DNA of 64,000 bases from Alphaproteobacteria bacterium (lineage in GTDB: Bacteria > Pseudomonadota > Alphaproteobacteria > MPNO01 > UBA830): NCBI GenBank assembly GCA_964291215.2, contig OZ219791.1, positions 3,264,001-3,328,000 on the forward strand, written 5' to 3'. The translations under genes were made by a program, and so were the position numbers. The notes under the pieces were generated by a model. It had not been told where the DNA came from. It saw only the letters and a program-made list of their open reading frames with translations, and ran no database searches. The number at the start of each line of letters is the position of its first letter. The stretch's first letter is position 1. Below are positions 13,783-58,974 of this stretch, piece after piece.

Positions 13783-15263
13783 GTATCTACTCACCCCTAA
13801 TTGGGTTCTGATTGGTCGTAGTGCTCGTTGATGATGTCTGCGGCTTTTCCGTCGAGGGCGATCTGGGTGGCGACGAGTGGGTTGTAGCCGAGTGCGGCCA
13901 TGGAGGTGAGGTAGCTTGAGCCCCGGCACCATGCTTTTGCGTGGAGCGGAAGCATCCGGACACCTTGACCTTTGCCATCCTGATTTTCTGTTCTCCGGCA
14001 TTGTTGGTGAAGCTGACGTTGGGGTCGTCTGTGAAGCGCAGGTTTTCGTGTTTCACGAGACGTTCGTGCAGGTTGTGCGCGTTTGCGTCCACGTTTTCCT
14101 TTCGGCGGGATGTCGGGCAGTTCCCTGGCGCCCTGATGGTGCGGTAGCGCTTGCGCCCGGCGTCGTTCAGGGTCTTGGATGCGCTCTTGTTGACCTTGTG
14201 GCAGGGAGCAGGCTCTTCATCAGTCGCGCGGTAGCCTCGACGACAAAGGTCAGTTCGCGCAGCAGGTGGCTGCCGCACAACTGGTGGCTACACTGCCATG
14301 TACGAGGCCCAGGACGCCCTTGTAGCACGGGCCGATCTCTTGCCCGCGCTTGCGGTGCGGGAACTTGCACGTCAGGGTCCCACGACATGGAGCCACTTAC
14401 TGTTGATCCGAAATCGTCGACATCGGGCGTTGCAGGAGGTGCGCCACGGCGGCCTCCTCCCATGACGCATCGTGAAAGCATGGCCGAGGCCTCGGAGAGC
14501 TTGATGCCGGAGATCGCCTGCACGAGCGCGACGGCGCAGGGACAGCATCTGGGCGACCAGCAGGTTGATGACGAGGGCTTGGATGCCGATGCCGTACTGC
14601 ACGGGATGTTGTCGGGGAACCGGCCCCGGGCCTTGCACTTCGGGCATTCCTTGATCTCGGCGCGGCGCTCGACGACCTCGAACACGATGTCGTGCGGCGC
14701 TCCCGATCGACGGGGGCGTCGATGTCGGCGCCGCAGGCGTCGCAGGCCGCGACCGTCTCCTCGACGATGGTCTTGCGCAGTTTGTCGCCCATCTGCCGGT
14801 TCGGCTTCGGGCCGTTGCTTCCGGCACGCTTTTGTCCGTCTGTGACGACGGCAGACCGGAGTTCCGGCTCGTGCGTAGTCTTCTCCAGAAGGACGACGAT
14901 GATGATGTCGAGCAGGATGACGAGGACGCGGATCACGGCCTCTTCCGCCACCTTGCCGGCAGCGCCGCGGTCTTGGCCGCTTCGAACTCCTCGCGCGCCG
15001 CCCGTCGCCATCACCCGGCCTTGCGTTTCATCAGCGCGCCGCCTCCGAGATGCGTTTCCACATACAGATCATGCGGGGGCTGGAGCCCCGGAAGCAGCTG
15101 GCACAGCCCGCTCGTCGCCTTCGATCCAAAGTAGCCCACTGGCGGTCCCCGTCGTTCTCGATTACCACCACTAAACGAATCGGCCTGCAGTGTCAAATCT
15201 CCACGAAAACCCGTTCGTTGCTCTACCCCGACATCAAGCCGGAACCAGGGGGTGAGCAGTTAC
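13783..15263 (-). mobile_element. IS66-family element, copy 1 (eroded transposase, MTase fragment at left end)
   Basis: Ends GTATCTACTCACCCC (13783) and GGGGTGAGCAGTTAC (to 15263). 8-bp TSD GGTCGAAC at 13775-13782 and 15264-15271. TnpC-like fragments (HQLCGSHLLREL, FTNNAGEQKIRMAKVK.SGCFRS) are spread over shifting frames. Confidence 0.92.
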
Positions 15264-15271
15264 GGTCGAAC

Positions 15272-16193
15272 ATTACCTCCGTCGGCGATCTCAGGACTTT
15301 CCGAGTGTTGAGCCGATCCTGCACCTTCTGAACATCTTCGTTGCATGTCGCGCGAAAGTCCGTGCCCTTCGGGAAGTACTCCCGCACCAGGCCGTTGGTG
15401 TGCTCATTCAAGCCGCGCTCCCGGGAATGGAAAGGCGAAGAAGAAATCTGCGTCAAGTGCGACACGCCTGTGGTCTGCGAACTCCTTGCCGTTGTCTGAC
15501 GTGATTGTGTGGACCAATAGCGCACCAGAGCCGAGCAGGCGGATCATACCGACCGTGTCTTTCTGTCCACCCAGCAAGGCGTATTTCGTGGCACGATCAA
15601 CCAGCGACATCACAGCTCCACTGTGAGCTTTGCCGATGATGGCTCCCAGTCGCCGACCCGTTCCTTTGCCTCCGCAGGGCGCTCGGAAATGTCCACCCGG
15701 CCGGAATGGCATCCGCCCTTCCAGTTCGGCTTCTTGCCGCGCCGCCGAAGCTTCAAGACGCCCCCGGCTCTCCGATCTTCGGCGATCATGGATCCGTTCA
15801 CGGCCCTCCAGTCGAAAACGGCCGCTGCTCGGGGCCCTCCCGCAGCTTTTTCTGAGCTTCAACCCGAGGCGTCAACCGCCAGGAAACAAACGAGGCTGCC
15901 CTGCGTTTCTGCCATCCTTTGCGCCTGCTTGTGACGGTAACCCCGTCCCCCGGTGTTGCGCTTGATCTCCCGGAAAATTGTTGATCGGCCCAGCTGCCGA
16001 GCAATCGCACCTTGTGAAAGACCGCTTTTCTGCCTCAATCTGACATCGCTCTTCGTAGGTGACGGTAGCCTTTGGACATGAACAAGCTCCCTTCATCTTG
16101 TAGAGGGGCTCTCGCCGCTACCGCTCCGCAACATCATGCGTCTAAAAACACATGGCCACAGCCCATCATGTGTTGCACTTCACTATGGAACGG
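15272..16193 (-). mobile_element. IS30-family element remnant (frameshifted), interrupted near its 3' end by IS66 copy 1
   Basis: Fragments MSKGY..TYEERCQIE (start near 16079), VGDWE..IIGKAHSGAVMSLVDR, TITSDNGKEF, ERGLNEHTNGLVREYFPKGTDF, DRLNTRKVL. TGTTGCACTT-like end at about 16171. Right end not identified. Confidence 0.85.
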
Positions 16194-16235
16194 GGGTTCA
16201 GAAAATGGAGTGGCATCGGAGTTTTTCAGCAGCCT

Positions 16236-16497
16236 GGATTACGCAACCTGATGTCTGGAAATTGTCGTGAAGCTGATCGAACTGTTCCCATTTGATCTTG
16301 GTTTCGGTTTCCCATTTTTCGTCGATGAGGACCGCGGTTGAGAGGCGCTCCAACGAGGCGAGGTTCGGAAAGACCCTGACTTTGGAGGTGCGCCGCTTGA
16401 GCTCTTGCTGGATCGGCCGCTCGATACCGTTCGAGGTTCGCATGCGCTTGCGGTGAGCATTGGGCAAGGTGAAGACAGCGAGCCCCGCATTCTTTTC
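16236..16497 (-). mobile_element. IS256-family 3' fragment, truncated by a second copy of the same IS
   Basis: Begins with IR GGATTACGCAACCTGATGTCTGGAAATTGTC. Encodes HRKRMRTSNGIERPIQQELKRRT..VFPN. Confidence 0.85.
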
Positions 16498-17731
16498 GGT
16501 ACTGTAACTTGATGTCTGGAAATTTGTCTGAGGTTTGCGCTTTGAGGTGTTTCACTGGGGGGCTAGCCCCCTAGTGAAACGCGGCGCCATCGTGCTATCC
16601 CATGGAGTTGTAAAACCTTCATGGAGGAAGCGAATGGAGCTGCGACACACTACGACGATTGAGGCCGTTTTGGAACATCTGATCGCAAACGGAGCAACGG
16701 ATCTGGGGCGGGTCTTTGGTCAGCTCTTCGAGCTTGCGATGCAAATCGAGCGCGAGCAGTACTTGAAAGCGGGCCACCGGACACCGGAGCGACAGGGCTA
16801 TGCCAACGGCTATAAGCCCAAACGGATCGACACCCCCCTGTTGCCGTTCAGGTGCCAAACGGTCACGGGGACGACCCCCCCAGTCGCTTGAACGCGGCCA
16901 GCGATCTTCTCGCGCCGTAGCCGAGATGTACATCAAGGGTGTTTCCACACGGCAGGATGTAATGCGCGAGTTCGGGAGCCTGTCCTCTTCTCAGGGGGCC
17001 ACCAGGTTGCTCGATGAAGAACTCGCCGCGCAACCGGCCCCTGATGAAATACCTGATCCTGGATGCGCGCTACGAAAAAGCCCGCCATGACGGCGTTGTG
17101 CGCGATGTCGCAGTACTCTCGGCCATCGGAATAGGGGCCGCAGGCACGTTCTGGGGCTCTTTGTGGCGCTCTCCGAGGCCGAGGTCCATTGGAGAGCCTT
17201 CCTGGAAAGCTTGCTAGCCCTGCATGGTACGACCTTCATCGTCTCGGATGACCATGCTGGGCTGAAAGCGGCACGGTGCTGGGCGCGGCGACATGGCAGC
17301 GCTGCCAGTTCCACCTGGCGCAAAACGCCGTGCACCGAACAACGACATCAGGAAACGTATTGGAAAACAGCTCGGAGCCATGCGTCCTCACTCCAAACCG
17401 CCGAGGCTGAACCGGGCGCCCTCGTGGCCAGCTATCGCGACAAGCATCCAAGCTTCCTGGCTGGAAAAGAATGCGGGGCTCGCTGTCTTCACCTTGCCCG
17501 ATGCTCACCGCAAACGTATGCGAACCTCGAACGGCATCGAGCGGCCGATCCAGCAAGAGCTCAAGCGGCGCACCTCCAAAGTCAGGGTCTTTCCGAACCT
17601 CGCCTCGTTGGAGCGCCTCTCAACCGCGGTCCTCATCGACGAAAAATGGGAAACCGAAACCAAGATCAAATGGGAACAGCTCGATGACTGAGAGCTTCAC
17701 GACAATTTCCAGACATCAGGTTGCGTAATCC
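16498..17731 (+). mobile_element. IS256-family element, copy A (frameshifted transposase)
   Basis: IRs GGTACTGTAACTTGATGTCTGGAAATTTGTC and GACAATTTCCAGACATCAGGTTGCGTAATCC. Fragments NGYKPKR, EMYIKGVSTR, YLILDARYEK, SDDHAGLKAA, TSNGIER. No TSD at the flanks. Confidence 0.9.
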
Positions 17732-18375
17732 AAGTTCCCGCACCGCAAGCGCGGCCGGGAGGCAAGAGATCGGCATCATCCCGTGCTACAAGGGCGTCCT
17801 GGGCCTCGTACATGGGCCAGTGTAGCCACCAGCTGTGCGGCAGCCACCTGCTGCGCGAACTGACCTTTGTCGTCGAGGCTACCGCTGGGCGCGACTGATG
17901 AAGAGCCTGCTCCGCGAGATCTGCCACAAGGTCAACAAGAGCGCATCCAAAACCCTGAACGAGGCCGACCTCCGGGCCGTGCGCAAGCGCTACCGCACCA
18001 TCCTCACGCAGGGCGCCAGGGAACTGCCCGACATCCCGCCGAAAGGAAAACGTGGACGCAAGTCCGACGCGCACAACCTGCACGAACGTCTCGTGAAACA
18101 CGAGAAGTCCGTCCTGCGCTTCATAGACGACCCCAACGTCAGCTTCACCAACAATGCCGGAGAACAGAAGATCAGGATGGCAAAGGTCAAGCTCAAGGTG
18201 TCCGGGTGCTTCCGCTCCACGCAAAAGCATGGTGCCGGAGCTCAAGCTACCTCACCTCCATGGCGGCACTCGGCTACAACCCACTCGTCGCCACCCAGAT
18301 CGCCCTCGACGGAAAAGCCGCAGACATCATCAACGAGCACTATGAATCAGAACCCAACAAGGGGTGAGTAGATAC
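17732..18375 (+). mobile_element. IS66-family copy 2, 3' half only
   Basis: Same sequence as copy 1 with fewer deletions. Ends GGGGTGAGTAGATAC at 18361-18375. The 5' half is missing at the IS256 junction. Confidence 0.88.
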
Positions 18376-18686
18376 TTTCACCGAATAGTCGCACCCGAAC
18401 CCATCCAGCGCTCGCCGGTCGATCCCGATCGAGCGCCGGCGCCTTGCGCTTCATCAGCGCGCCGCCTCCCGGATGCGTTTCCACATACAGATCATGCGGA
18501 GGCTGGAGCTCCGGAAGCAACTGGCACAGCCCGCTCGTCGCCCTGAATTCAAAGTAGCCCGCTGGCGGTCCCCGTCGTTCTCGATGACCACCACTAAACG
18601 AATCGGTCTTCCGTGTCAAATCTCCACGAAAACCCGTTTGTTACTCTACCCCGACATCAAGCCGGAACCAGGGGGTGAGCAGTTAC
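18376..18686 (-). mobile_element. IS66-family left end carrying a longer DNA adenine methyltransferase fragment
   Basis: Left IR ends at 18686. Translation gives GYF..ATSGLCQ..PPHDLYVETHPGGGALMKRKAPAL and continues in another frame as SIGIDRRALDGFGCDYSVK. It is cut by the right end of copy 2. Confidence 0.75.
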
Positions 18687-18846
18687 GCTTTTTCAAGGCT
18701 GAACCTTGGCCCCGGAGTGTCGGAGTTATTTTTGCTCTGCTTACTGCGGAGCGATCATAGACACTGCACCAATCGGGATGAGGCGACCGAATCCACTGGC
18801 ACTGCCACGAGCCCGTACATTTCTTGTCGGCGGCAGAAAAGAATGG

Positions 18847-20160
18847 CTATCGCTCGGGAATGAGGCCCCGCGGCGAGAACCTGAGCACCAGCAGCAGGAT
18901 GACGCCCATGGTCAGAAGGCGCATGTAGGCCGCCGAGTTCAGGAGGTGGGCGCGAAGGCCGCTGTCCTCCGGCATTCCGGCGGTCACCGTGTGCATGAGC
19001 CACAGCCCGAGGGGCTCCACTTCCACCCACAGGAACCAGATCAGCATGCCGCCGAGCACGGCGCCGAAATTGTTTCCCGAACCGCCGATGATGACCATGA
19101 CCCACACCAGGAAGGTGAAGCGTAGCGGCTGGTAGGATCCCGGGGTCAACTGCCCGTCGAGCGTCGTCATCATCGCTCCGGCAATTCCGCATACCGCCGA
19201 ACCGAGGACAAAGGTCTGGAGATGTCGGGCGGTTACATCCTTGCCCATAGCCTCCGCGGCGGCCTCGTTGTCGCGAATTGCGCGCATCATGCGACCCCAG
19301 GGGGAATAGAGCGCTCTCTGCGAGAGCCAGAGGACGACGGCAAGGACGATGGCGAACAGGATGGCGTAAGACAGCTTGACGTAGGCCGACGAGAGATCGA
19401 TGGGGTCGAGCCCGAGGCGGGTTGCCCAAGCGACGAAGTCCGGTGATCGCTGAAGCTCGACCTCGTAGGCGACCGGGCGCGGAAGGCCGACAACATTCTT
19501 CACGCCGCGTGACAGCCAGTCCTCGTTTTTCAGCACGAAAATGATGATCTCCGCTATGCCGAAGGTAGCGATTGCGAGATAATCGGTTCGGAGTCCGAGC
19601 GCGGTCTTGCCGACAAGCCAGGCCGCGCCCGCTGCGAGAAGTCCGCCGACCGGCCATGCGAGGAGAATTGGCAGCCCGAGGCCTCCCAGATAACCCGTCG
19701 CGGCGGGATTGACCGCTTCGATCGCGGCCACCGCGGGGTCGAAGACAAAACGGTAGGCGAAGAAGCCTGCAAGCAGCGTTGCCGCAAGCGCCAGCCAGCG
19801 CTTTCGCCTGGGCGCCATACGTTTCCACAGAAGGATCGCGGCGCCGATTGATCCGGCGCCGACGGCGAGCGCGACGAGAACGCGCGCGCCACCGGCCGCC
19901 CAGGCGGCGGATACCGGTGGCATCGAGACCAGCACCGCCGCCAGCCCGCCGAGGGCAACAAAACCCATCGTCCCGAAATTGAACAACCCGGCATAGCCCC
20001 ACTGGACGTTCAGGCCCAGGCTCATGATGGCCGAGATCAGGCAGAGGTTGAGGATTGTCAGCGCCACCGTCCAGCTCTGGATCAAACCGACGCCAACCAT
20101 CAGGAGAGAGAATACCGCATAGAGGACGAGAATCCGTGTGCGTGAATTTGTCGCGCTCAT
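18847..20160 (-). CDS. livM: Branched-chain amino acid ABC transporter permease (LivM-like)
   Basis: LGLNVQWGYAGLFNFG, LRTDYLAIAT, SPWGRMMRAIRDNE, GGSGNNFGAVLG. Confidence 0.88.
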   Translation of the reverse strand: MSATNSRTRILVLYAVFSLLMVGVGLIQSWTVALTILNLCLISAIMSLGLNVQWGYAGLFNFGTMGFVALGGLAAVLVSMPPVSAAWAAGGARVLVALAVGAGSIGAAILLWKRMAPRRKRWLALAATLLAGFFAYRFVFDPAVAAIEAVNPAATGYLGGLGLPILLAWPVGGLLAAGAAWLVGKTALGLRTDYLAIATFGIAEIIIFVLKNEDWLSRGVKNVVGLPRPVAYEVELQRSPDFVAWATRLGLDPIDLSSAYVKLSYAILFAIVLAVVLWLSQRALYSPWGRMMRAIRDNEAAAEAMGKDVTARHLQTFVLGSAVCGIAGAMMTTLDGQLTPGSYQPLRFTFLVWVMVIIGGSGNNFGAVLGGMLIWFLWVEVEPLGLWLMHTVTAGMPEDSGLRAHLLNSAAYMRLLTMGVILLLVLRFSPRGLIPER

Positions 20161-21170
20161 GTCGCGCGCCCCCTGAGGATGCCCGTGGGCATGAACAGCA
20201 GGACGAGGATGAGAATCCCGAAGGAGACCGCGAGCTTGTAATCCGTCGACAGCAACTGTACGAGCCCTTCGGGGTCGAGGCTGTCCGGAAGGATGTAGGT
20301 AAGAACCTTCTTGAACGCGTAGGTGATCAGTATTTCGGAATAGGCGACCACGAAGCCGCCGACAATGGCGCCGACGGGATTGCCGAGCCCCCCTACGATG
20401 GCGGCGGCAAACATCGGAAGCAGGAGTTGGAAGTAGGTGAGCGGCACGAAACCCTTGTCAAGCCCGTACAACGTGCCCGCAATGGTGGCGAGGGCCGCGG
20501 TGAGAATCCAAGTGATGGCGACGACCCGTTCGGAACTGATGCCGCAGAGGAGGGCGAGATCCTCGTTGTCGGACAGCGCCCGCATCGATTTTCCGGTGCG
20601 GGTGCGCTGGAGAAACCAGAACATCGCGGCGACGACGATGACCGCGGTGACGATGGCGATGGTCTGGGCGACATTGATCGACAGCCCCTCGGACAGGCCT
20701 GTCGCCTGCTTGAACTCGCGCGCCCTGACGATGAAGCGGGCGCCGTCGGCAAAGTGCTGATGATCCGGTCCGATGATCAGGCGGATGATGCCGTTGAGGA
20801 CGAACATCACCCCGACGGACACGATCGTGAAGATGACTGGGTCGCTCCGCCTGCGCCGATAATACCGGTAGACGACGCGGTCGGTGACGTGCAGCAGAAC
20901 GACGGTGGCGGCAATCGCGGCGGGCAGGGCGAGAACGGCCGTTGGCAAGGGGCCCAGACTCACGCCGAGTCCCTGCAGCCACCAGGTCAGCAGCACCGTC
21001 ACCATGGTGCCGAAAGCCATGGTGTCGCCGTGAGCGAAGTTGGAGAAACGCAGGATGCCGTAGACGAGGGTTATGCCGAGCGCTCCGAGTGCGATCTGGC
21101 TCCCGTACGCGGTGGCCGGGAAGAGCACGAAATTGCAGAGCACTAGAACCGCATTGAGAAAGTCCATCAT
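20157..21170 (-). CDS. livH: Branched-chain amino acid ABC transporter permease (LivH-like)
   Basis: ALGITLVYGILRFSNFAHGD, TRTGKSMRA, FAAAIVGGLG. Confidence 0.88.
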   Translation of the reverse strand: MMDFLNAVLVLCNFVLFPATAYGSQIALGALGITLVYGILRFSNFAHGDTMAFGTMVTVLLTWWLQGLGVSLGPLPTAVLALPAAIAATVVLLHVTDRVVYRYYRRRRSDPVIFTIVSVGVMFVLNGIIRLIIGPDHQHFADGARFIVRAREFKQATGLSEGLSINVAQTIAIVTAVIVVAAMFWFLQRTRTGKSMRALSDNEDLALLCGISSERVVAITWILTAALATIAGTLYGLDKGFVPLTYFQLLLPMFAAAIVGGLGNPVGAIVGGFVVAYSEILITYAFKKVLTYILPDSLDPEGLVQLLSTDYKLAVSFGILILVLLFMPTGILRGRAT

Positions 21171-21874
21171 CAGTCTCCGAGAAAAGACCCTCGGACTTCG
21201 GGGTCGAGCAGCAGTTCGCTACCGTCATCGGTATACAGGTTCCGTCCATGCACGAGGACATAGCCGGTGTCAGCGATTGCCAGTGCCTGGCGTGCGTTCT
21301 GTTCGACCATGAGCACGGATACGCCGGTGTGCACGATCTCCATGATCTTGAACATGATCTCGTCCTTGACCGCGGGCGAAACCCCGGCCGTCGGCTCGTC
21401 CAGCATCAGGACCTTCGGCAGGGTCATCAGCGCCCGCCCGATCGCCACCTGCTGGCGCTGGCCACCTGACAGTTCTCCGGCTAACTGGCGGCGTTTTTCG
21501 CTCAGGACAGGAAACAGCTCGTAGACCTCCTCCAAGGTTTTCCGGATGTCGTCGCGGCGGATGAATGCCCCCATCTCGAGGTTTTCCTCGACCGTCATGG
21601 TCGTGAACACGTTGTTCGTCTGCGGCACGAAGGCCATGCCCCTGATCACCCGTTCCTGCGGCGACAGGCCGGTGATGTCCTCTCCGTCGATATGCACGGA
21701 GCCGTGCTTCAGCGTGAGCATGCCGAAGATCGCTTTCATTGCCGTCGATTTGCCGGCGCCGTTCGGTCCCACGATGACGGAGATCTCGCCGGCCTCGGCG
21801 GCGATCGTGCAGTCATTGAGGATGTCGGGGCCGCCGTAGCCGCCGGTCATGCTCTCGCCGACGAGAAGACTCAT
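21170..21874 (-). CDS. livF: ABC ATPase (LivF-like)
   Basis: GPNGAGKST, LSGGQRQ, LDEP, VEQN. Confidence 0.9.
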   Translation of the reverse strand: MSLLVGESMTGGYGGPDILNDCTIAAEAGEISVIVGPNGAGKSTAMKAIFGMLTLKHGSVHIDGEDITGLSPQERVIRGMAFVPQTNNVFTTMTVEENLEMGAFIRRDDIRKTLEEVYELFPVLSEKRRQLAGELSGGQRQQVAIGRALMTLPKVLMLDEPTAGVSPAVKDEIMFKIMEIVHTGVSVLMVEQNARQALAIADTGYVLVHGRNLYTDDGSELLLDPEVRGSFLGD

Positions 21875-44805: not shown

Positions 44806-45348
44806 ATGGCCGAAACCGAGACACAGGAACAGCAACCCGCCGAAACGGTCCTCGGCGAGGCGATGGCCGCTGCCGGAGTCGCGGCCGGGGCGGACGCCTC
44901 CGAGGACGGCGATGCCGGCGACGCTTTCGGCGCCGCGCCGCAGGAACCGCAGATTGACAGTCTCGGCCGCGCCTATGCCACCGGAAAGCGCAAGAACGCG
45001 ATCGCCCGCGTGTGGCTGAAACGCGGCACGGGCGGCGTCGTGGTCAACGGCAGACCGGCGCCGGAGTATTTTGCCCGGTCGGTGCTCCAGATGATCATCA
45101 ACCAGCCCTTCGAGGCGGCCAACCGCGGAAACGAGTTCGACATCTGGTGCACGGTCAAGGGCGGCGGGCTCTCGGGCCAGGCCGGCGCGGTGCGCCACGG
45201 AATATCGAAGGCGCTCGCGCTGTTTGAGCCGGAACTCCGCTCGACCCTCAAGAAGGGCAGCTTCCTCACGCGGGATTCGCGCATCGTCGAGCGCAAGAAA
45301 TACGGCAAGCGCAAGGCGCGACGCAGCTTCCAGTTCTCCAAGCGCTAG
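44806..45348 (+). CDS. rpsI: 30S ribosomal protein S9
   Basis: [32 protein letters not shown]. Confidence 0.97.
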
Positions 45349-47826: not shown

Positions 47827-47952
47827 AGAGTTCCATTAGGGGGATCGTTTCCCTGCCGCACCGAGATCCGGTGCGGCAGGGGCGGCAAGGCTGGCGGTCC
47901 CCGTCAGTGGTCCAGTCCGGCCTTGCTTGTCCGAAACAACACGGGAAATACG

Positions 47953-48171
47953 ATGCCGAAAGAAGATTTCATGGAGTTTTCCGGAATGGTCATGGAGCTG
48001 TTGCCCAATGCCATGTTCCGGGTGAAGCTGGATAACGACCACGAAGTGCTGGCCCACACTTCGGGCAAGATGCGCAAGAATCGGATTCGCGTTCTTGCCG
48101 GAGACCGCGTCAATGTCGAGATGACGCCCTACGATCTCACCAAGGGCCGGATCACCTTCCGTTTCAAATAG
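47953..48171 (+). CDS. infA: Translation initiation factor IF-1
   Basis: [36 protein letters not shown]. Confidence 0.97.
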
Positions 48172-48175
48172 GGCA

Positions 48176-50251: not shown

Positions 50252-50261
50252 GAGGGGCCGC

Positions 50262-50462
50262 ATGCGGAGAGCTTCCTGTCCCGTCTGCAAGGCGCCAAGG
50301 TCGCCGAAATATCGTCCGTTCTGCTCGAAACGCTGCAAGGATGCCGATCTCGGACGGTGGTTCAGCGGTGCCTACGCCATTCCCGCGGAAAAGGATGACG
50401 GGGAGGAGGATATCGTCTCGATCCAAGAGGCTGGGGACGGGTTGGGAGGGGATACGGAATAG
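50262..50462 (+). CDS. yacG: DNA gyrase inhibitor YacG
   Basis: CPVC..RPFCSKRC..DLGRW..Y.IP. GGAGG RBS. Confidence 0.92.
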   Translation: MRRASCPVCKAPRSPKYRPFCSKRCKDADLGRWFSGAYAIPAEKDDGEEDIVSIQEAGDGLGGDTE

Positions 50463-50559
50463 GGCGGGGACTCGCCACACGGGATACGCCCACCTGTCCG
50501 ACTGGAATCGGTGGTGGCGCAGCATGCTGTCGGCGCACTGTCCGAGTACACGAAGCATG

Positions 50560-50841
50560 TCACCTGCCGCTTCCTCCCCCGTCAGGCACCCGCCGCCGGA
50601 AAGTGGCGGGCAGAAGTATGGGCACGGAGAATGCCTCTGCGTGCGCCAGGATGTCGGCGTCGTCAGTCACCAGCGCGTTGGCACGTCCGACAAGCGCGAG
50701 TTTCAGAAACGAACGGTCAAAACGATCGTTGCACTCGGGAACCGTCGGTGGCAGCTCCGGAACAGTGACGGTCTCGCAGAACGGAAGATAGTCGTCGAGG
50801 AGATCTTGCTGGTCCTCGGTACTCAGCGCGAATTTCAGATG
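50560..50841 (-). pseudogene. 5'-truncated PIN-domain toxin (not in ORF track)
   Basis: Manual translation KFALSTEDQQDLLDDYLPFCETV..VPECNDRFDRSFLKLALVGRANALVTDDADIL resembles the C-terminal half of PIN TA toxins (CRDPxD..FL..A....A..LVTGD.DLL). No in-frame start. Confidence 0.7.
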
Positions 50842-50984
50842 TTCTGACTTCGTGAGTTGACTTCATCAGTCCGGCTCCCCTTTTGTTTGGGGATTATATA
50901 CCAGTTTACCCAAGCGGCGGATCGCCAGCCCAGGGGACTGATTTAAGAGAATCCAAAGGGGGTTATATCGAATGGTCCCAATCC

Positions 50985-51263
50985 TCAGTCATCAAGTTCC
51001 CGCAGTAGCGTTCCCATAGCATTGAGGGCGGCCTTGCGATTTACCTTCAGCATAGTCTCCATGACGGCTATGAATCCCTCCGGTTTGACAACGATGTGAA
51101 CGTCGGAGACGCCGCCCGAGCACGGTATGCTGGTCACTAAATCAACGGTTCCCTCGTAACCGCTGATCGAACCCGATCCGATTTCGAGATCAACCTTCAA
51201 TTGGTCCACTTTCTTCCCCGAGCGCGGGCCGCGCCAAACCTCACAGGATGTCAGTTTCAGCAT
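50985..51263 (-). CDS. Hypothetical protein (92 aa), IS1595 passenger
   Basis: ATG 4 bp after the stop of the preceding small ORF. No family recognised. Confidence 0.55.
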   Translation of the reverse strand: MLKLTSCEVWRGPRSGKKVDQLKVDLEIGSGSISGYEGTVDLVTSIPCSGGVSDVHIVVKPEGFIAVMETMLKVNRKAALNAMGTLLRELDD

Positions 51264-51267
51264 GTGA

Positions 51268-51417
51268 CTACTTCTCAGAATCATCCGGCTTGAGGTAGCG
51301 CCAATCATCCTTCGGCTTGCGCTGCATGATCGCGAGGGCAATGTCCTTCGACGCGGCGTCAATCGGCTCCGGTAACGGCTTCTCTGCAGGACGGCCCCGC
51401 GACCGCTTCTCGGTCAA
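51268..51417 (-). CDS. Small hypothetical protein (49 aa), IS1595 passenger, not in ORF track
   Basis: AAGGAG RBS, TTG start, MTEKRSRGRPAEKPLPEPIDAASKDIALAIMQRKPKDDWRYLKPDDSEK. Confidence 0.55.
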   Translation of the reverse strand: MTEKRSRGRPAEKPLPEPIDAASKDIALAIMQRKPKDDWRYLKPDDSEK

Positions 51418-51435
51418 TGGTCGTCTCCTTCAGTC

Positions 51436-51714
51436 TTATCGGCTTTGCTGCCTGATCTTGTCGCACTTGTCTAGCAGCACCGCCAATCGCACCGCGGGGG
51501 ATGCATCCATGTAAAGGGGGCGGGCGTAAGCCTCAAGCAGGAGCGTGCCCTTGACCGCGATCAATGGGGTCCGCGGATCGTCCTCCATGATCCTCGTCAT
51601 GCTGGCCGCTACCCAGTTCCAGCAAGCCTTGTGTCTTTCAGTCGGATCGCCATCGGCGGCCGCTGCTGGAAACGCGAAATGCGCGAGGATCAGACCGATA
51701 ACGATTGCTCTCAT
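51436..51714 (-). CDS. Hypothetical secreted protein (92 aa), IS1595 passenger
   Basis: Signal-peptide-like MRAIVIGLILAHFAFPAAAA, two Cys, GGAG RBS right after the transposase stop. Confidence 0.6.
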   Translation of the reverse strand: MRAIVIGLILAHFAFPAAAADGDPTERHKACWNWVAASMTRIMEDDPRTPLIAVKGTLLLEAYARPLYMDASPAVRLAVLLDKCDKIRQQSR

Positions 51715-51728
51715 GCTCCGTCGTCCTT

Positions 51729-52670
51729 CTATTCGGAGATTAGATCGGAGTAGCTGAGTCGCTTCCCGATCATGCCGGTTACGGTCGTGGCCATCTGGTC
51801 GAGTGTATCGGCGGGCCGGATGTTGTGCCGTCCCGAAAACTCGGTCACATAGCGGTGCATGTGCTTGGTGCTCATGTGGTGGTAGGTACCATGATACCCC
51901 CGCTTGAGCATGGACCAGAAAGACTCGATCCCGTTCGTGTGCGCCATCTGCCGGACATACTCGCCAACGCTGTGATTGACGCTTTCATGGTCGAAAGGAA
52001 TTCCGTTGTATGTCTTCGCGTCATCCGTGTAAACGGTGGCGGACGGATCGGTGTGATCGCCGATGAAGCCGTGCAGGGTTTCGGCGTCAGTCGCCTCGAC
52101 GGGCCGGGCGACGACCTTGCCGGTCTCCCGATCCTTCGCGCCGACCACAGCGGTTTTGCCGACAGGGCCGCGCCCGGTGAGCTTGGCCCGCTTGGCCTTC
52201 GGCATGTTCTTGCGCTTCCCGCCCATGTAGGTCTCATCGACCTCGCAAGGGCCGGCAAAGAGATCGGCGCTGTTATCGTCCCATGTCTCGCGGATGCGGT
52301 GCGCCAGGTGCCAGGCGGTCTTCTGCGTTACGCCGAGATCGCGGTGCAGCTTCATCGAGGACTGTCCCTTGAGGCCGGTGTTGAAGAGGTAGATCGCGAT
52401 GGCCCAGATCTGAAAGCCGAGAGGCGATGAATGCATCAGGGTATCGGTCTTCACTGAGAAGTCCTTGCGGCAGGACCGGCAGCGGTAGGGCTGGGGCTTG
52501 CGCGTCACCCGCTCCTGCACGTTATCGGAGCCGCACTTCGGACAATGGACGCCATCGGGCCAGCGGATTTTCGTGAACCATGCTTCGGCGGTCGCGTCAT
52601 CGGGGAACATGCGGATGAGATCAACGAAGGTCATCCCCTTGCGGAAGTTCTTTCCCGATCCTTTTGTCAT
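51729..52670 (-). CDS. IS1595-family transposase (intact)
   Basis: Zn ribbon CPKC..YRCRSC, EVDETYMGG, VYTDD, VNHS..YV..HTNGIESFWS.LKR. Confidence 0.95.
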   Translation of the reverse strand: MTKGSGKNFRKGMTFVDLIRMFPDDATAEAWFTKIRWPDGVHCPKCGSDNVQERVTRKPQPYRCRSCRKDFSVKTDTLMHSSPLGFQIWAIAIYLFNTGLKGQSSMKLHRDLGVTQKTAWHLAHRIRETWDDNSADLFAGPCEVDETYMGGKRKNMPKAKRAKLTGRGPVGKTAVVGAKDRETGKVVARPVEATDAETLHGFIGDHTDPSATVYTDDAKTYNGIPFDHESVNHSVGEYVRQMAHTNGIESFWSMLKRGYHGTYHHMSTKHMHRYVTEFSGRHNIRPADTLDQMATTVTGMIGKRLSYSDLISE

Positions 52671-52784
52671 GTCTCTACTCCCTATTATGGAAACAGTTTA
52701 CCCAAATCGGGTCGACTCGTCAACAGTTGCCGAAAAAAAAAATTTCTGCTAAATTGTGGGAGTGAACCGTTCACATCATCGCTT

Positions 52785-53300
52785 ATGACGATGGGCTACC
52801 CTGCCAAAGCCGTCGCAAACTACTTCCTGTCAAAATACGGGAAGCATGGCATTACGCCGCTCAAAATCCAGAAGCTCGTGTACATCGCCCATGGTTGGCA
52901 CATGGCCCTGCACGGTGTGGAAAACCCGTTGGTTGATGATGAATATGCCGAGGCTTGGGAATACGGGCCAGTGTTCTCATCCCTGTACCATGAGTTCAAA
53001 TATCGTGGTCGCCTCCCGATCCTCGAACTTGCGACCGAAATAGACGACGATCTGGAATTCACACCCCCGAAGATCCCAAAGTCCGATAAGTCGACCACCG
53101 GGCTGCTTGACCGGATTTGGGAGATCTATGGTGGCCGCACAGGGATTGAACTTTCCGAGATGTGTCATCAGGAAGGTTCGCCGTGGGATAAGGCCAGGAA
53201 AAATTCACAAGGTCGGAGGAACGCTCATATCAGCGACGAAGAAATAGCCGCTCACTATAGAGAGAAGTTGGAGCGAAATAAGGCGCGGCGCAATGGCTGA
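52785..53300 (+). CDS. Panacea/SocA (DUF4065)-like antitoxin
   Basis: AVANYFL, ITPLKIQKLVYIAHGW, EAWEYGPV, LSEMCH..SPW. Confidence 0.88.
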   Translation: MTMGYPAKAVANYFLSKYGKHGITPLKIQKLVYIAHGWHMALHGVENPLVDDEYAEAWEYGPVFSSLYHEFKYRGRLPILELATEIDDDLEFTPPKIPKSDKSTTGLLDRIWEIYGGRTGIELSEMCHQEGSPWDKARKNSQGRRNAHISDEEIAAHYREKLERNKARRNG

Positions 53301-53694
53301 TCTTGATAACGTGACTGAAGACCCAGAAAATTTGTCGCTCGGAGTGACGGGGAACGCTGAATCTGATTTTTTGTCAGGGCAGGGAGAAGCATTAGCAAAA
53401 GTCCAAGTGGCTTTGGCCCGACAAAGATTGCGGTTTAGACGATTTGCTTTCATCGTCGCTCTTCTCGTCATGGTTGCCGCCGGTATTCTGGAATGGAAAC
53501 TTCTGGAATATATTCGCACGCCGTGTTCGCAAGCTGATGACCTGTTCGTTCTTTTGGCCATCTCCCCTATCGCCTCGATTACGCTGATCTTGATCTTCGT
53601 TCTGAACGGTGTGTTTCGTGGTTTCCGAGAAAGCGACCTAAAGGGCCTCCCGCTTGAAACCGCCGGCAAGGCAGCTTTTGGGGGCGATTCTTAG
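53293..53694 (+). CDS. Two-TM membrane protein overlapping the Panacea gene, candidate toxin
   Basis: Hydrophobic segments FAFIVALLVMVAAGIL and LFVLLAISPIASITLILIFVL. Overlaps the upstream gene by 8 bp. Confidence 0.65.
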   Translation: MADLDNVTEDPENLSLGVTGNAESDFLSGQGEALAKVQVALARQRLRFRRFAFIVALLVMVAAGILEWKLLEYIRTPCSQADDLFVLLAISPIASITLILIFVLNGVFRGFRESDLKGLPLETAGKAAFGGDS

Positions 53695-54557
53695 CCTCCC
53701 GCAATCTTGCGGGTTGGGTAAACTAGTATATAAGCCCCTTTTGTTTCCAACACAGTAACTGCTCACCCCCTGGTTCCGGCTTGATGTCGGGGTAGAGCAA
53801 CGAACGGGTTTTCGTGGAGATTTGACACTGCATGCCGATTCGCTTAGTGGTGGTAATCGAGAACGACAGGGACCGCCAGTGGGCTACTTTGGATCGAAGG
53901 CGACGAGCGGGCTGTGCCAGCTGCTTCCGGGGCTCCAGCCCCCGCATGATCTGTATATGGAAACGCATCTCGGAAGCGGCGCGCTGATGAAGCGCAAGGC
54001 CGGGTGATGGCGACGGTCAACGCGGCGCGCGAGGAGTTCGAAGCGGCCAAGACCCGGATCGCGGCGCTGCGTGCGGCCGGCAAGGTGCCGAAAGAGGCCG
54101 TGATCCGCGTCTTCTTCATCCTGCTCGACATCCTCATCGTCGTCCTTCTGGAGAAGACCACGCACGAGCCGGAACTCCGGTCTGCCGCCGTCACAGACGG
54201 ACGAGAGCGTGCCGGGAGCAACGGCAAGGGCCCGAAGCCAAACCGGCAGATGGGCGACAACCTGCGCAAGACTATCGTCGAGGAGACGGTCGCGGCCTGC
54301 GACGCCTGCGGCGCTGACGGCCCCGTCGATCGGGAGCGCCGCGTCCTCTACGACATCGTGTTCGAGGTCGTGCCGCGCCGAGATCAAGGAATGCCCGAAG
54401 TGCAAGGCCCGGGACCGGTTCCCCGAAAACATCCCGTGCAGTACGGCATCGGCATCCAAGCCCTCGTCATCAACCTGCTGGTCGCCCAGATGCTGTCCCT
54501 GCGCCGTCGCGCTCGTGCAGGCGATCTCCGGCATCAAGCTCTCCGAGGCCTCAGCTA

Positions 54558-55851
54558 GATTACGCAACCTGATGTCTGGAAATTGTCGTGAAGCTGATCG
54601 AGCAGTTCCCATTTGATGTATGCCTTGGTTTCGGTTTCCCATTTTTCGTCGATGAGGACCGCGGTTGAGAGGCGCTCCAACGAGGCGAGGTTCGGAAAGA
54701 CTCTGACTTTGGAGGTGCGCCGCTTGAGCTCTTGCTGGATCGGCCGCTCGATGCCGTTCGAGGTTCGCATGCGCTTGCGGTGAGCATCGGGCAAGGTGAA
54801 GACAGCGAGCCCCGCATTGTTTTCCAGCCAGTCTGCGAAGCTTGGATGCTTGTCGCGATAGCTGGCCACGAGGGCGCCCAGTTCAGCCTCGGCGGTTTGG
54901 AGTGAGGACGCATTCCAGACGGCTCCGAGCTGTTTTCCAATACGTTTCCTGATGTCATTGTTCGGTGCGTGCTGCACGGCGTTTTGCGCCAAGTGGAACT
55001 GGCAGCGCTGCCATGTCGCCGCGCCCAGCACCGCGCGTCGTGCCGCTTTCAGCCCAGCATGGTCATCCGAGACGATGAAGGTCGTACCATGCAGGCCACG
55101 GGCTAACAAGCTTTCCAGGAAGGCTCTCCAATGGACCTCGGCCTCGGAGAGCGCCACAGAGAGCCCCAGAACGTGCCTGCAGCCCCTATTCCGATGGCCG
55201 AGAGCACTGCAACATCGCGCACAACGCCGTCATGGCGGGCTTTTTCGTAGCGCGCATCCAGGATCAAGTATTTCATCAGGGGCCGGTTGCGCGGTGAGTT
55301 CTTCGTCGAGCACCCTGGTGGCCCGACTGACCTGAGAAGAGGACAGGCTCCCGAACTCGCGCATTACATCTTGCCGTGTGGAAACACCCTTGATGTACAT
55401 CTCGGCTACGGCCAGCATGACGGCGCGAGAAGATCGCTGGCCGCGTTCAAGCGACTGGGGATAGAACGGATCGTCCCCGTGACCGTTTGGCACCTGAACG
55501 GTAACAGTGGGGGTGTCGATCCGCTTGTAGCCGTTGGCATAGCCCTGTCGCTCCGGTGTCCGTTCGTAGTGGCCCGCTTTCAAGTACTGCTCGCGCTCGA
55601 TTTGCATCGCAAGCTCGAAGAGCTGGCCAAAGACCCGCCCCAGATTCGTTGCTCCGTTTGCGATCAGATGTTCCAAAACAGTCCCGATCGTCGTAGTGTG
55701 TCGCAGGTCCATTCGCTTCCTCCATGAAGGTTTTACAACTCCATGGGATAGCACGATGGCGCCGCGTTTCACTGGGGGGCTAGCCCCCCCCCAGTGAAAC
55801 GCCTCAAAGCGCAAACCTCAGACAAATTTCCAGACATCAAGTTACAGTACC
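54558..55851 (-). mobile_element. IS256-family element, copy B (frameshifted)
   Basis: Same IRs as copy A. Motifs WQRCQFH, TSNGIER. Roughly 0.2 kb of IS66 sequence is missing between its two flanks. Confidence 0.9.
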
Positions 55852-56354
55852 ACCTGCGCGAACTGACCTTTGTCGTCGAGGCTACCGCGCGACTGATGAA
55901 GAGCCTGCTCCGCGAGGTCTGCCACAAGGTCAACAAGAGCGCATCCAAAACCCTGAACGAGGCCGACCTCCGGGCCGTGCGCAAGCGCTACCGCACCATC
56001 CTCACTCAGGGCGCCAGGGAACTGCCCGACATCCCGCCGCCGCCGAAAGGAAAACGTGGACGCAAGTCCGACGCGCACAACCTGCACGAACGTCTCGTGA
56101 AACACGAAAAGTCAGTCCTGCGCTTCATAGACGACCCCGACGTCAGCTTCACCAACAATGCCAGAGAACAGAAGATCAGGATGGCAAAGGTCAAGGTGTC
56201 CGGATGCTTCCGCTCCACGCAAAAGCATGGTGCCAAGCTACCTCACCTCCATGGCCGCACTCGGCTACAACCCACTCGTCGCCACCCAGATCGCCCTCGA
56301 CGGAAAAGCCGCAGACATCATCAACGAGCACCACGACCAATCAGAACCCAACTA

Positions 56355-57525
56355 GTCACCTGAATCTAAAGTTCGTGGCATAAGTTTTTTTCGACGCGGA
56401 GACAGAAGCGCTTGACGGCGGCGAGGATTTCGTCAGCGGACTTTGTCCACTTGAAGGGCTTGGGATTTTCGTTGTGGGTTTTGATGAAGGCCCGGATGTC
56501 GGTTTCGAGTTGCAAGGTCGAGCGGTGGACGCCACGTTGCAACTGCTTGCGGGTCAGTTCGGCGAACCAGCGCTCGACCTGATTGAGCCACGAGGCGGAT
56601 GTCGGCGTGAAGTGGACGTGCCAGTGCGGCCGCCGGGCCAGCCAGGCTTTGACCGCGGCAGTCTTGTGGGTGGCGTAGTTGTCCATGACGATGTGGATGT
56701 CGAGGCCGTCCGGGATATTGCGGTCGATCACCTTGAGGAAGTCGAGGAACTCTTTGGCCCGGTGGCGTCTGTTGCCGATGACCGCGCCGGTGGCGATGTC
56801 GAGCGCGGCGAACAGCGAGGTCGTTCCGTTGCGCTTGTAGTCATGGGTGCGCCGCTCAGGGATGCCGGGCAGCAGGACCGGCTGGGTGCGGTCGAGGGCC
56901 TGGATCTGGCTCTTTTCGTCGACGCAGAGCACCAGCGCGCGATCCGGCGGCGAGAGGTAGAGGCCGACGATGTCGCGGACCTTATCGACGAAGTGCGGAT
57001 CACGAGAGAGCTTGAACGTCTCAGCTCGGTGCGGCTGCAGGCCGAAGGCGCCCCAGATGCGCCAGATCGACGTGTGCGACAGCCCCGCCTCCTTCGCCAT
57101 CGAGCGCAGCGACCAGTGGGTCGCGTCCGCGGGCGTCGAGGTGAGCGTGCGCTCGATCACTTCCGCCACCTTCTCGTCCGCGATGCTCCGCGGGCGTCCC
57201 GGCCGGGGCTCGTCCGAAAGCCCCTCGATGCGGTCCTTGACAAAGCGCTTGCGCCACTTGCCGACGGTGTGCTCGTGCACGCCGATCTCTGCGGCCACCG
57301 CCTTGTTGCCAAGCCCGTCCGCGCAACGCAGGATTATGCGGCAACGATCCGACAGCGAGCGCGCCACACGGTGGCGGCGCACCTGCGCCTCCAGATACGA
57401 CCGTTCCGAATTACTCAAGACCAGCACCGCCAAGGGCCGTCCTATACCGCGTGGCATCGCCATGACCTCCGTGTTCACACTCCGACCGCCATCATACAAT
57501 TATACTTACTTCAGTTCCAGATGAC
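56355..57525 (-). mobile_element. IS630-family element (ORF 56366-57499, probable start MPRGIG)
   Basis: IRs GTCACCTGAATCT and AGTTCCAGATGAC, each flanked by TA. Motifs [28 protein letters not shown]. Apparent short in-frame deletions ([16 protein letters not shown]) relative to my recollection of the family consensus. Confidence 0.92.
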
Positions 57526-57527
57526 TA

Positions 57528-57726
57528 GTGTTGTGTCCCGCAAATACGCGCATATAACCTTTCAAGCTTGTCGAAGATCGAATCTGCGGTTACGACCCAT
57601 ACGAAAGGGGATGTGGATTTTCGGTGGGCAACCAGAGGGGAAGTTGGCGGCCGCGGGGCATATCGAAAGGCCTCCTGTTGCGAGAGAGACCGAGAATATA
57701 TCACACTTATTTACGGGACACTACAC
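57528..57726 (-). mobile_element. MITE: internally deleted IS630-family element
   Basis: IRs (TA)GTGTTGTGTCCCGCAAATA and TATTTACGGGACACTACAC(TA). The minus strand keeps AGGAGG-MPRGRQLP and the C-terminus PFVWVVTADSIFDKLERLYARICGTQH. Confidence 0.85.
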
Positions 57727-58974
57727 TAGGGGTGAGTAGATACGATTCGGTTACTCCTTCGTTTCAGGGGGCTTTCACCCCCTGTCTTCTGCCAGTTCGC
57801 CTGGCACACCGGAACCAGCTCTGCCCGCTCGACCCGGGGCGCACCGTCGTCCCGGGCCTCGGCACCCCGCAGCGCGTACACGCTCTCACGCACCCGCCGC
57901 TCCGTTTCCTCAAAGGCCTCGGCGCTGCGAACCGAGTTGCCGATGACAAACCGCGGTTATCTGCGTGACCGCCTCGACAACCCGAGCGGCAAGCCGGAAA
58001 TATCGATCGACGCGGAAGGCTGCGAAACTGACATGGGAGCGCTCCTGATGCTGTGGATTGTCTCCAATATCATCTCGCATCTTGCGGTGCAGAGCGTTCC
58101 CACCTCCACCGCTCGGCCCGTGACAAAATCCTGTCCTGAAACCGGCGATTGTCACGAAAACCCGTTTTCGCCGCTGCCTCGCGACCACACAACCGCGTTA
58201 AATCAATGATTTGCATTCGCCATGCGAGAACTGCACCCGGACCGCGCGCTGCAACACCCCGCCCGTGCCCTGCGAGACCTTGGTCGAGGTCCCGCGCCAC
58301 GGCGGCGGTGTCTGCCGGGCCGCGGGCTGGACCCGCGTCGGAACAACCAGAGGGCGCGGCCGCTACGACCGACATGACAGGGCCGACAAGCCGAAGAAGG
58401 ACATCTGGCTCTGCCCGCTCCGCAAGGACCGGAAGCGGGCCCTCAATCGCTGAACCCTGCAACCGCCAACCGGCACAGGATGGCGCTCAGCTCCTCCTCC
58501 GCAGCGCCGGGACCACAGTGATCCCACGCTGTTAATCCGGCGACGACTGGCGAGATTTTTTCAGTTTGCGTCGCGCTGCAATCGTGCCGCCAAGGCTTGA
58601 TGGGGCCTTCTCGGCACGAAAATTGTGATCAAGGAGGCGATTTGTGATGAGTCGAGCCCCAACGTATTCGGATTTCGCGTCTCCGAATTAGCATGGGATC
58701 GTCGTGCGCTGGGACAAAACCGCAACCAATGCGGAAAACACGGCATGGCGCCAGTGCCCCTCACCGCGCATCCCGGTGCACGAAACCGCTCCGGGTAACT
58801 CTGGAACTCCCTGACAAAAGCCCGTCAAACGGACGAAAACAACAACACCTCACCGCACGAACGAACGCTTACAGTTACCGTTTTCTGTTCGATTCGGCAC
58901 TACGGCCTGGTGGACCGGGACGCATGTCTCCGGTTGCAGGAAATCAGCACCTTAAAGCCATTGTTCACGACAAA

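What the first reader, a model, noticed from the sequence alone, without database searches (positions are those of the whole stretch)
13783..57743. Multi-copy mobile elements are selectively eroded by dense 5-7 nt microdeletions while host genes are intact
Seen: sister copies are nearly identical in substitutions but differ by many short deletions. IS256 A lacks TACGAA near 16777 that copy B has, and B lacks CCCAAA that A has near 16813. A also lacks 12 nt at a GCCGT microhomology near 16918. IS66 copy 1 lacks GCGAGAT, GTCCG, GTCCGT and a further 7-mer relative to copy 2. IS30, ISAs1-DUF4338 and the intron RT read as protein fragments with residues missing at short intervals. Single-copy genes, T1SS, virD4 and the IS1595 transposase show no such damage. 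Known: ordinary pseudogene decay is usually dominated by substitutions. Inference: a repeat-directed cut-and-repair process (a RIP-like anti-transposon mechanism) or a strong short-deletion mutator visible only in unselected DNA. A consensus or polishing artefact in repeats is a real alternative.
Basis: partly seen in the sequence, partly recalled or inferred. Interest (0 to 1): 0.85.

Follow-up and report, generated by a model that had tools for sequence, protein, structure and literature searches.

The report
Deletion ratchet killing bacterial jumping genes
In this bacterium and a distant cousin, cuts of five to seven bases mark both ordinary DNA and jumping genes, and they likely spread from copy to copy of each repeated element without the neighbouring letters, so that every full-length copy of four abundant element families is now broken.

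Summary
The deletions are real. Every named IS256 and IS66 indel checks out, and such 5-7 nt indels stand in read-derived contigs of three samples. Genome-wide, 1,305 of 2,449 distinct repeat indels are 5-7 nt.

Host DNA is not spared: against a sister species, this lineage lacks 141 such segments in 987 kb of single-copy DNA versus 9 the other way; 54 are in-frame 6-mers in genes.

What is special in repeats is spread. 87 of 248 5-7 nt deletions exceed 50% of copies, while 1-nt deletions and most SNPs stay rare. All 121 IS66 haplotypes differ. Deletions are shared between intron subfamilies while flanking SNPs are kept 105 of 107 times within 10 bp.

Best reading: a lineage-specific, T-anchored 5-7 nt deletion mutator, plus deletion-only gene conversion of loops too large for MutS. 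A second genome of the genus shows the same signature. No pAgo, NucS, Ku, ATP ligase, EndoV or self-targeting CRISPR spacer was found. The enzyme is unidentified.

The parts
13783..15263 (-). IS66-family element, copy 1; 32 deletions of 4 nt or more, 16 substitutions, 299 bp lost
   Evidence: about 190 copies in the genome
15272..16196 (-).
   Evidence: 72 copies
16237..16497 (-). inverted fragment of an IS256 end
   Evidence: repeat boundaries
16498..17730 (+). IS256 copy A; 21 deletions, 16 substitutions
17731..18687 (+). IS66 copy 2, partial and rearranged (17731-18375 aligned, 5 deletions; second end piece 18441-18687)
30273..33486 (-). IS66 copy 3, split by the group II intron; 24 deletions in 32197-33486
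30514..32196 (+). group II intron with broken RT; 37 deletions, 19 substitutions
   Evidence: Rfam RF02005 and RF00029, RVT_1 fragment; 77 copies
   Evidence: name not confirmed
53755..56355 (+). IS66 copy 4, split by IS256 copy B
54558..55851 (-). IS256 copy B; 15 deletions, 24 substitutions
   Evidence: 115 copies
56352..57528 (-). IS630 with an open 377-aa transposase frame and 2 deletions; several sister copies carry 14-38
51729..52670 (-). single-copy IS1595 transposase, intact (control)
38526..39332 (+). single-copy NifU-like host gene lacking an in-frame 6-mer near 39063 relative to sister G001
44806..45348 (+). ribosomal protein S9 gene lacking an in-frame 6-mer near 44895 relative to G001
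9320..9365 (.). single-copy intergenic DNA lacking two 7-mers relative to G001
13588..13775 (.). MITE, about 65 copies, almost no 5-7 nt deletions
24075..24266 (.). second MITE, about 100 copies, few 5-7 nt deletions

Best explanation
This lineage carries 5-7 nt deletions throughout its genome, likely made by a short-gap repair error anchored one base before a T, and in repeated elements each deletion likely spreads from copy to copy by deletion-only gene conversion. Step 1 (pattern shown, enzyme inferred and unidentified): rare deletions of 5, 6 or 7 nt, with T as second lost base at one end only, arise anywhere. Selection removes them from genes unless in frame. Step 2 (pattern shown, mechanism inferred): when two copies of a repeat pair, a long and a short allele form a 5-7 nt loop. 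MutS/L would restore base mismatches and 1-4 nt loops to the recipient but largely miss larger loops, and a loop-removing activity would excise the long strand. Each copy thus drifts toward the union of all deletions in its family. The result is a ratchet that has broken every full-length copy of four abundant families, RIP-like in outcome but probably a by-product of repair.
For: Genome-wide signature: 82 non-coding and 59 coding (54 of them 6-nt) losses in G000 vs 6 and 3 in G001, over 987 kb aligned from 1.35 of about 5.0 Mb of G001. End anchor: T at +1 in 58-64% vs 35-38% null, both ends together in only 27 of 373; 89% of 72 5-mers vs 35% null in G002. Size-specific spread: 5-7 nt deletions 45 of 248 singletons and 127 of 248 at 20% or more; 1-nt deletions 31 of 37 singletons; SNPs 981 of 1,785 singletons and 128 of 1,785 at 20% or more. 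Mosaicism: 121 of 121 IS66 and 49 of 49 intron deletion haplotypes distinct; deletion-SNP linkage |D'| 0.60 within 8 bp, back near 0.3 by 16-25 bp. Deletion-only transfer: a diverged intron subfamily (7 copies, 89 diagnostic SNPs, 49 of 70 coding ones at third codon positions) shares 43 of its 62 deletions exactly with the main family, 22 still polymorphic in it, and keeps its own SNPs 36 of 37 times at 1-5 bp and 69 of 70 at 6-10 bp. Load per substitution rises with copy number, 0.017 to 0.12. Only 3 tandem duplications of 4 nt or more, all singletons. New-site singleton deletions are rare in big families, 4 vs 543 singleton SNPs, close to the single-copy non-coding ratio of about 0.013. MutS and MutL frames are full length. 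Bacterial MMR handles loops up to about 4 nt efficiently and a separate large-loop repair exists in E. coli with unidentified proteins (PMC2504288, passages).
Against: No enzyme was identified for either step. Some families look too rich in distinct deletions for a low genome-wide rate: a 15-copy family has 22 distinct deletions of 4 nt or more, though 12 of its copies are within 6 SNPs of consensus (38 SNPs in all), and one IS630 copy has 28 private deletions vs 14 private substitutions. That fits a raised rate inside repeats, or lost donors. Deletions, rare ones included, avoid the first 250-290 bp of IS66 and IS256 although SNPs do not, which this model does not explain. Large deletions (15 nt or more) are mostly rare, 26 of 44 singletons, so loop removal is not size-blind. 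The same paper says 5-8 nt loops are still repaired by MMR at lower efficiency. Haplotypes come from one assembly; no spanning long reads were seen. Direction of transfer is inferred from frequency spectra, not observed.
Confidence: 0.6

Rival explanations
1. A dedicated repeat-directed defence: pairing of repeats, or an unknown guide, triggers cutting that makes new 5-7 nt deletions preferentially in repeated DNA, and cut copies are repaired from already deleted, resistant copies; host DNA takes only off-target hits.
For: Distinct deletions per distinct SNP are 0.10-0.6 in dead repeat families vs about 0.013 in single-copy non-coding DNA. 28 private deletions in one IS630 copy. Both genomes with a clear signature are about 6.1 Mb, with about 30% repeats in the DNA examined. 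The same T anchor in two distant congeners suggests a related enzyme.
Against: No Piwi, NucS, Ku, ATP ligase, RecT, EndoV, UvdE or intact TnpB in G000. None of 111 CRISPR spacers matches the genome outside the arrays. Surviving long alleles are not enriched for changes inside the target (68 vs 68.3 expected; anchor base changed in 0 of 1,005). A single-copy element remnant has 5 deletions in about 620 bp. Young 12-copy IS66 and 5-copy HsdM repeats are untouched. Intergenic DNA is under selection and the mutator may have begun late on the branch, which lowers the single-copy ratio (inference).
Confidence: 0.22
2. No drive: deletions arose in an early burst in master copies, were amplified by transposition in trans, and were later shuffled by unbiased conversion.
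For: Element ends are spared, as expected if mobilisation needs them. 78 of 114 IS66 copies keep 8-bp target duplications. Deletion load differs among copies (9-41 in IS66) with positive linkage at all distances.
Against: Deletions cross subfamilies that split while still coding, without their SNPs. Unbiased conversion should move SNPs and 1-nt indels alike, yet these stay rare. Load is the same in copies with and without target duplications, 27.1 vs 27.1.
Confidence: 0.11
3. Recurrent hotspots: the same deletion recurs independently at fixed sites in each copy, with no transfer.
For: Little co-conversion of neighbouring SNPs; slight excess of different-length alleles at one centre, 16 vs 9.2, p=0.03.
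Against: New events vary in length (5:6:7 about 1:2:1), yet most sites show one exact junction in up to 172 of 180 copies. The motif is far too weak to define sites. Some deletions drag a neighbouring allele completely, for example 28/0 vs 21/13 and 18/0 vs 30/11 at 9 bp.
Confidence: 0.05
4. Consensus or polishing artefact in repeats.
For: Only one assembly per genome; no spanning reads seen.
Against: Same 5-7 nt indels in read-derived contigs of three samples. Private SNPs are retained and transition-rich, 637 C>T of 1,146. Young families and CRISPR arrays are clean. Signature present in single-copy DNA and in a second genome.
Confidence: 0.02

Closest known systems
Deletion-biased nonallelic gene conversion in Drosophila and primates (Assis and Kondrashov 2012, PMC3280953; abstract and author summary seen)
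   Same: Deletions are copied between paralogues more often than insertions, giving cooperative shrinkage of neutral repeats.
   Different: Here it is a bacterium; the bias is near absolute (3 duplications vs 248 deletions of 5-7 nt) rather than about 3.5-fold; it has a size threshold near 5 nt; it carries almost no flanking SNPs; and it is fed by a size-quantised, T-anchored mutation class.
Gene conversion among IS copies in Wolbachia (Cordaux 2009, seen only as a cited title; Cerveau et al. 2011, PMC3205602, passages)
   Same: Bacterial IS copies exchange sequence and accumulate as degraded fossils.
   Different: By its title that conversion maintains dead elements; the passages seen describe decay by substitutions and deletions with no size class. 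Here conversion spreads the damage.
Large loop repair of E. coli and yeast (PMC2504288, passages)
   Same: MMR-independent processing of heteroduplex loops larger than about 4 nt, including loop-directed removal.
   Different: Known from laboratory substrates; proteins unidentified in E. coli as of that paper; no genome-scale footprint was found in my searches; does not explain the origin of 5-7 nt deletions.
Repeat-induced point mutation (RIP) of fungi (features recalled, no call)
   Same: Outcome: whole families of repeated elements are disabled while single-copy genes keep working.
   Different: RIP makes C-to-T changes only in repeats. Here the lesions are deletions, they also occur in single-copy DNA, and young repeats are untouched.
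EndoMS/NucS short-patch mismatch repair (PMC11551744, abstract)
   Same: Patch size of about 5-6 bp.
   Different: NucS is not found in G000; deletions are not centred on SNPs; the anchor is one-sided.
General bacterial deletional bias (cited in PMC4224334, passages)
   Same: Deletions outnumber insertions in unselected DNA.
   Different: The sister species has no 5-7 nt peak (9 events); the peak here is narrow and sequence-anchored, and single-copy DNA stays about 83% coding.

Membership tests
Deletion-biased nonallelic gene conversion | Identical indel alleles shared among paralogues in a non-tree-like pattern | tested here: met
   121 of 121 IS66 haplotypes distinct, four-gamete 59-67% of deletion pairs; 43 of 62 shared across subfamilies
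Deletion-biased nonallelic gene conversion | Excess of deletion over insertion alleles reaching high frequency | tested here: met
   87 of 248 above 50%; 3 singleton duplications
Deletion-biased nonallelic gene conversion | Direction shown by phylogeny of orthologous copies across strains or species | not tested
   No locus-resolved strain data were obtained; the elements gave no full-length match in G001
Large loop repair (E. coli type) | Acts on loops beyond MutS range with MMR present | tested here: inconclusive
   Threshold fits (1-nt rare, 5-7 nt driven) and MutS/L frames are whole, but 15+ nt deletions are mostly rare and activity was not assayed
Large loop repair (E. coli type) | Biochemical loop-removal activity | not testable with these tools
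   needs extracts or a reporter
RIP | C-to-T point mutation as the lesion (recalled) | tested here: not met
   lesions are 5-7 nt deletions; substitutions per copy are only 1-2%
RIP | Confined to repeated DNA (recalled) | tested here: not met
   141 vs 9 events in single-copy DNA
RIP | Family-wide inactivation of repeats | tested here: met
   fewest deletions in any full copy: IS66 9, IS256 8, IS30 11, intron 14
pAgo or CRISPR-guided interference | Piwi-domain protein or self-targeting spacers | tested here: not met
   PF02171 0 of 26 genomes; no spacer of 111 hits outside the arrays; the pPIWI-RE search rang nowhere, controls included, so it is uninformative
EndoMS/NucS | nucS gene and deletions centred on mismatches | tested here: not met
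   no PF01939 hit in G000; 68 vs 68.3 sites with a SNP
Ku/LigD non-homologous end joining | Ku and ATP-dependent ligase | tested here: not met
   0 of 5 genomes for each
Top1B/ribonucleotide short-deletion signature (recalled) | Type IB topoisomerase, loss of RNase HII | tested here: not met
   PF01028 0 of 5; RNase HII present in 5 of 5

The most novel reading that the evidence does not exclude
These alphaproteobacteria carry an undescribed, transferable genome-defence activity, a bacterial counterpart of RIP that works by deletion: one nuclease both clips 5-7 nt beside a T and removes 5-7 nt loops from paired repeats, so that any element family reaching many copies is driven to extinction while single-copy genes take only in-frame collateral damage.
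Probability: 0.25. Interest if true: 0.93.

Novelty: new variant of a known kind. Interest (0 to 1): 0.8.

Why it matters
How bacteria end IS bursts, and what causes their deletional bias, are open questions. These two genomes hold a measurable footprint of both: a narrow, sequence-anchored deletion class that differs between sister species, and a conversion drive that copies only deletions and has broken every full-length copy of four large element families without host gene decay. The trait is present in G000 and G002 and absent in the sister G001, so gene-content comparison can look for the enzyme, and large-loop repair proteins were unknown in E. coli as of PMC2504288. It also warns that repeat families can erode far faster than their substitution age suggests.

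Tried and rejected
Mismatch-triggered cutting: SNPs inside deleted zones 68 vs 68.3 expected over 176 sites. Hairpin or cruciform origin: stems and folding energy equal to null, -3.41 vs -3.35. Distal recognition motif: none within 25 nt in G000 or 14-21 nt in G002. Palindromic transposase-type target: the two ends are not co-enriched, and insertions seen against G001 mostly overlap by 8-11 bp, one by 6. Okazaki primer origin: motif on leading 13 vs lagging 12, low power. No coding/template strand bias. Resistance by motif loss: anchor base changed in 0 of 1,005 surviving long alleles. Candidate enzymes not found in G000: NucS, Piwi, Ku, ATP ligase, Top1B, TnpB beyond a weak fragment, RecT, EndoV, UvdE; searches for pPIWI-RE and endonuclease VII (111) rang in no control and show nothing. 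Repair genes with full-length frames: mutS, recJ, rnhB, polA, uvrD, recQ, mutL, ruvABC, rnhA, dnaQ, xseA, uvrA, mutM, dut, recG, five UDG-family genes. Pfam scan of 82 of 128 listed island and repeat proteins gave RM, BREX-like, Sir2, Fic, integrase and transposase families but no evident candidate; most of the roughly 3,500 non-repeat genes were not scanned. PIN remnant as control: 50563-50862 is an open 100-aa PIN_3 frame absent from G001 at this place, age unknown, so uninformative. Repeats of G001, G003, G004 and G030 held were too few to judge (413-3,392 bp each). No RNA holder listed. Strain-level polymorphism in single-copy DNA was not obtained and stays open. Ten paper searches listed no bacterial report of this signature; subscription journals are mostly missing and no supplements were read. 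Earlier scan findings returned only eukaryotic RIP-like cases.

Full report
Setting. The window is C2:3,264,001-3,328,000 of a 6.15 Mb, two-contig genome of 64% GC, about 31% repeated. An ispG search returns mainly alphaproteobacteria, best 83%. Three runs of one study hold most of the unique DNA, and one laid sponge-metagenome run holds a relative at about 93%. Single-copy DNA is about 83% coding by my own simple gene calls, so this is not a decaying genome.

Observation. The named indels are there. Window copies carry about as many or more deletions of 4 nt or more than substitutions, for example IS66 32 vs 16 and intron 37 vs 19. Across all repeats, 1,305 of 2,449 distinct clean indels are 5-7 nt, with sizes 4-8 at 35, 302, 635, 368 and 105. 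They are deletions. Every full-length copy of IS66 (121), IS256 (51), IS30 (45) and the intron (49) has at least 8 such deletions; median loss is 104-330 bp. Read-derived contigs of three samples show such indels (9 of 12 rows shown, 158 not shown), private SNPs have a natural spectrum, and young families are clean. The artefact reading fails.

Host DNA is not exempt. A sister species G001 aligns at about 93%. In 987 kb of single-copy alignment, from 1.35 of its about 5.0 Mb, G000 lacks 82 non-coding and 59 coding 5-7 nt segments (54 six-mers), and G001 lacks 6 and 3. In the first subset 38 of 42 were non-tandem, so they are losses in G000 and not duplications in G001. Five lie in this window, including in-frame losses in a NifU-like gene and ribosomal S9. 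The non-coding rate is 0.77 per kb, about 0.013 per branch substitution if half of the 12,752 mismatches are assigned to G000. One single-copy element remnant has 5 in about 620 bp, the densest cluster and so biased upward.

Anatomy of the lesion. Microhomology of 3 nt or more occurs in 31% against 6-8% by chance, and 53% have 0-1 nt. One end is anchored: the second lost base is T in 58-64% of events vs 35-38% null, and S|RT in 34-45% vs 14-15%. Both ends carry the mark together in only 27 of 373. There is no hairpin signal, no replication or transcription strand bias at low power, and no link to SNP positions.

A second genome. In 400 kb of G002 (same genus, 70-80% identity, 6.1 Mb; regions chosen around known repeats), 207 of 309 distinct repeat indels are 5-7 nt (84, 103, 20), 168 of 207 with 0-1 nt microhomology, and T is the second base in 89% of 72 five-mers vs 35% null, mostly after A. 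Its largest sampled family has 17 of 17 distinct deletion haplotypes, and 22 of 93 5-7 nt deletions reach 50%. Repeats held from G001, G003, G004 and G030 were too few to judge.

Why repeats are hit so hard. Most deletions are shared. In four families 127 of 248 reach 20% of copies and 87 exceed 50%, whereas 31 of 37 one-base deletions and 981 of 1,785 SNPs are singletons (G-tract regions and sites with under 40 copies left out). Sharing is not by descent: all 121 IS66 haplotypes differ, and deletion-SNP linkage fades within 16-25 bp. The clearest case is an intron subfamily of 7 copies whose diagnostic SNPs are mostly third-position (49 of 70), so it split while still coding. It shares 43 of 62 deletions exactly with the main family, 22 still segregating within it, yet keeps its own SNPs 105 of 107 times within 10 bp; main copies carry its alleles only 54 of 4,030 times. 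One exact junction per site argues for copying over recurrence. Load per substitution rises with copy number (Spearman 0.44 over 389 tiles), though low-copy repeats include working genes.

Mechanism. Shown: size class, T anchor, lineage specificity, presence in host DNA, size-dependent high frequency, transfer without SNPs. Inferred: a short-gap repair fault as source, and loop removal in heteroduplex between copies as the drive, with MutS/L (full-length) guarding mismatches and small loops. PMC2504288 (passages) gives the roughly 4-nt limit of efficient bacterial MMR and an MMR-independent large-loop repair. I put this at 0.6.

Against it. A 15-copy family has 22 distinct deletions against 38 SNPs and one IS630 copy has 28 private deletions against 14 private SNPs; both fit a raised rate inside repeats, though lost donors or late onset of the mutator could also do it. 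On the other side, new-site singletons in the big families are only 4 vs 543 SNPs, a count that drive and site saturation would lower. The spared 5' 250-290 bp of IS66 and IS256 and the nearly spared MITEs are unexplained. No candidate enzyme turned up in targeted searches or in 82 island proteins, and the two CRISPR arrays (96 and 17 repeats; types I-G and II-C are my recalled reading of gene sizes) do not self-target.

Comparison. It works like deletion-biased nonallelic gene conversion of flies and primates (PMC3280953, abstract) and ends like fungal RIP, but fails RIP membership on lesion type and on confinement to repeats. Ten full-text searches of the held library listed no bacterial case; Cordaux 2009 was not held and no supplements were read. 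Verdict: real, partly reinterpreted, a new variant of a known kind, interest 0.8.

Noticed in passing
window 13783-15263 and 54558-55851 families (IS66, IS256), genome-wide: The first 250-290 bp at the transposase 5' end carry almost no 5-7 nt deletions, rare ones included, although SNP density is uniform.
   Followed up: partly
window 30514-32196; family-wide: The group II intron inserts site-specifically into IS66, about 240 bp from one end; about 43 IS66 alignments break at that point, and many intron copies share flanks.
   Followed up: partly
window 13783-15263 family, near position 15021: A second shared break point in about 41 IS66 copies suggests another site-specific insertion.
   Followed up: no
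G000 C1:574247-581196 and C2:2068487-2069551: Two CRISPR arrays (96 and 17 repeats) beside a long Cas1-containing frame and a 1,047-aa gene; regular periods, no 5-7 nt losses, one duplicated spacer.
   Followed up: partly
L288:1385-2404 (G000 C1): A young IS66 family of 12-13 near-identical copies with open frames, so invasion is continuing or recent.
   Followed up: partly
G000 C1:420000-475000, C1:780000-830000, C2:405000-425000: Several related integrative elements with ssb, radC, Toprim, strawberry-notch helicase, type I RM and Sir2 genes in 4-8 copies, with few 5-7 nt deletions.
   Followed up: partly
window 24351-29883: RTX-repeat protein with ABC transporter and HlyD genes (type I secretion), lying in DNA not aligned to the G001 stretches held.
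   Followed up: no
window 50563-53694: Low-GC island absent from G001 at this place: truncated PIN_3 frame, intact IS1595, SocA/Panacea antitoxin gene.
   Followed up: partly
window 59269-63959: VirD4/TraG-like coupling protein and downstream unassigned frames, likely a conjugative element.
   Followed up: no
L015:718-1941 (G002): A 407-aa protein with a NucS-like nuclease domain in G002 with no counterpart in G000.
   Followed up: partly
G000 C2, about 600 kb and 1.40-1.60 Mb: GC skew stays clean despite 31% repeats: a switch near C2 600 kb and one reversed 200 kb block.
   Followed up: no
IS256 family, two internal sites: Variable-length G/C tracts with many length alleles among copies; left out of the frequency counts.
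   Followed up: no
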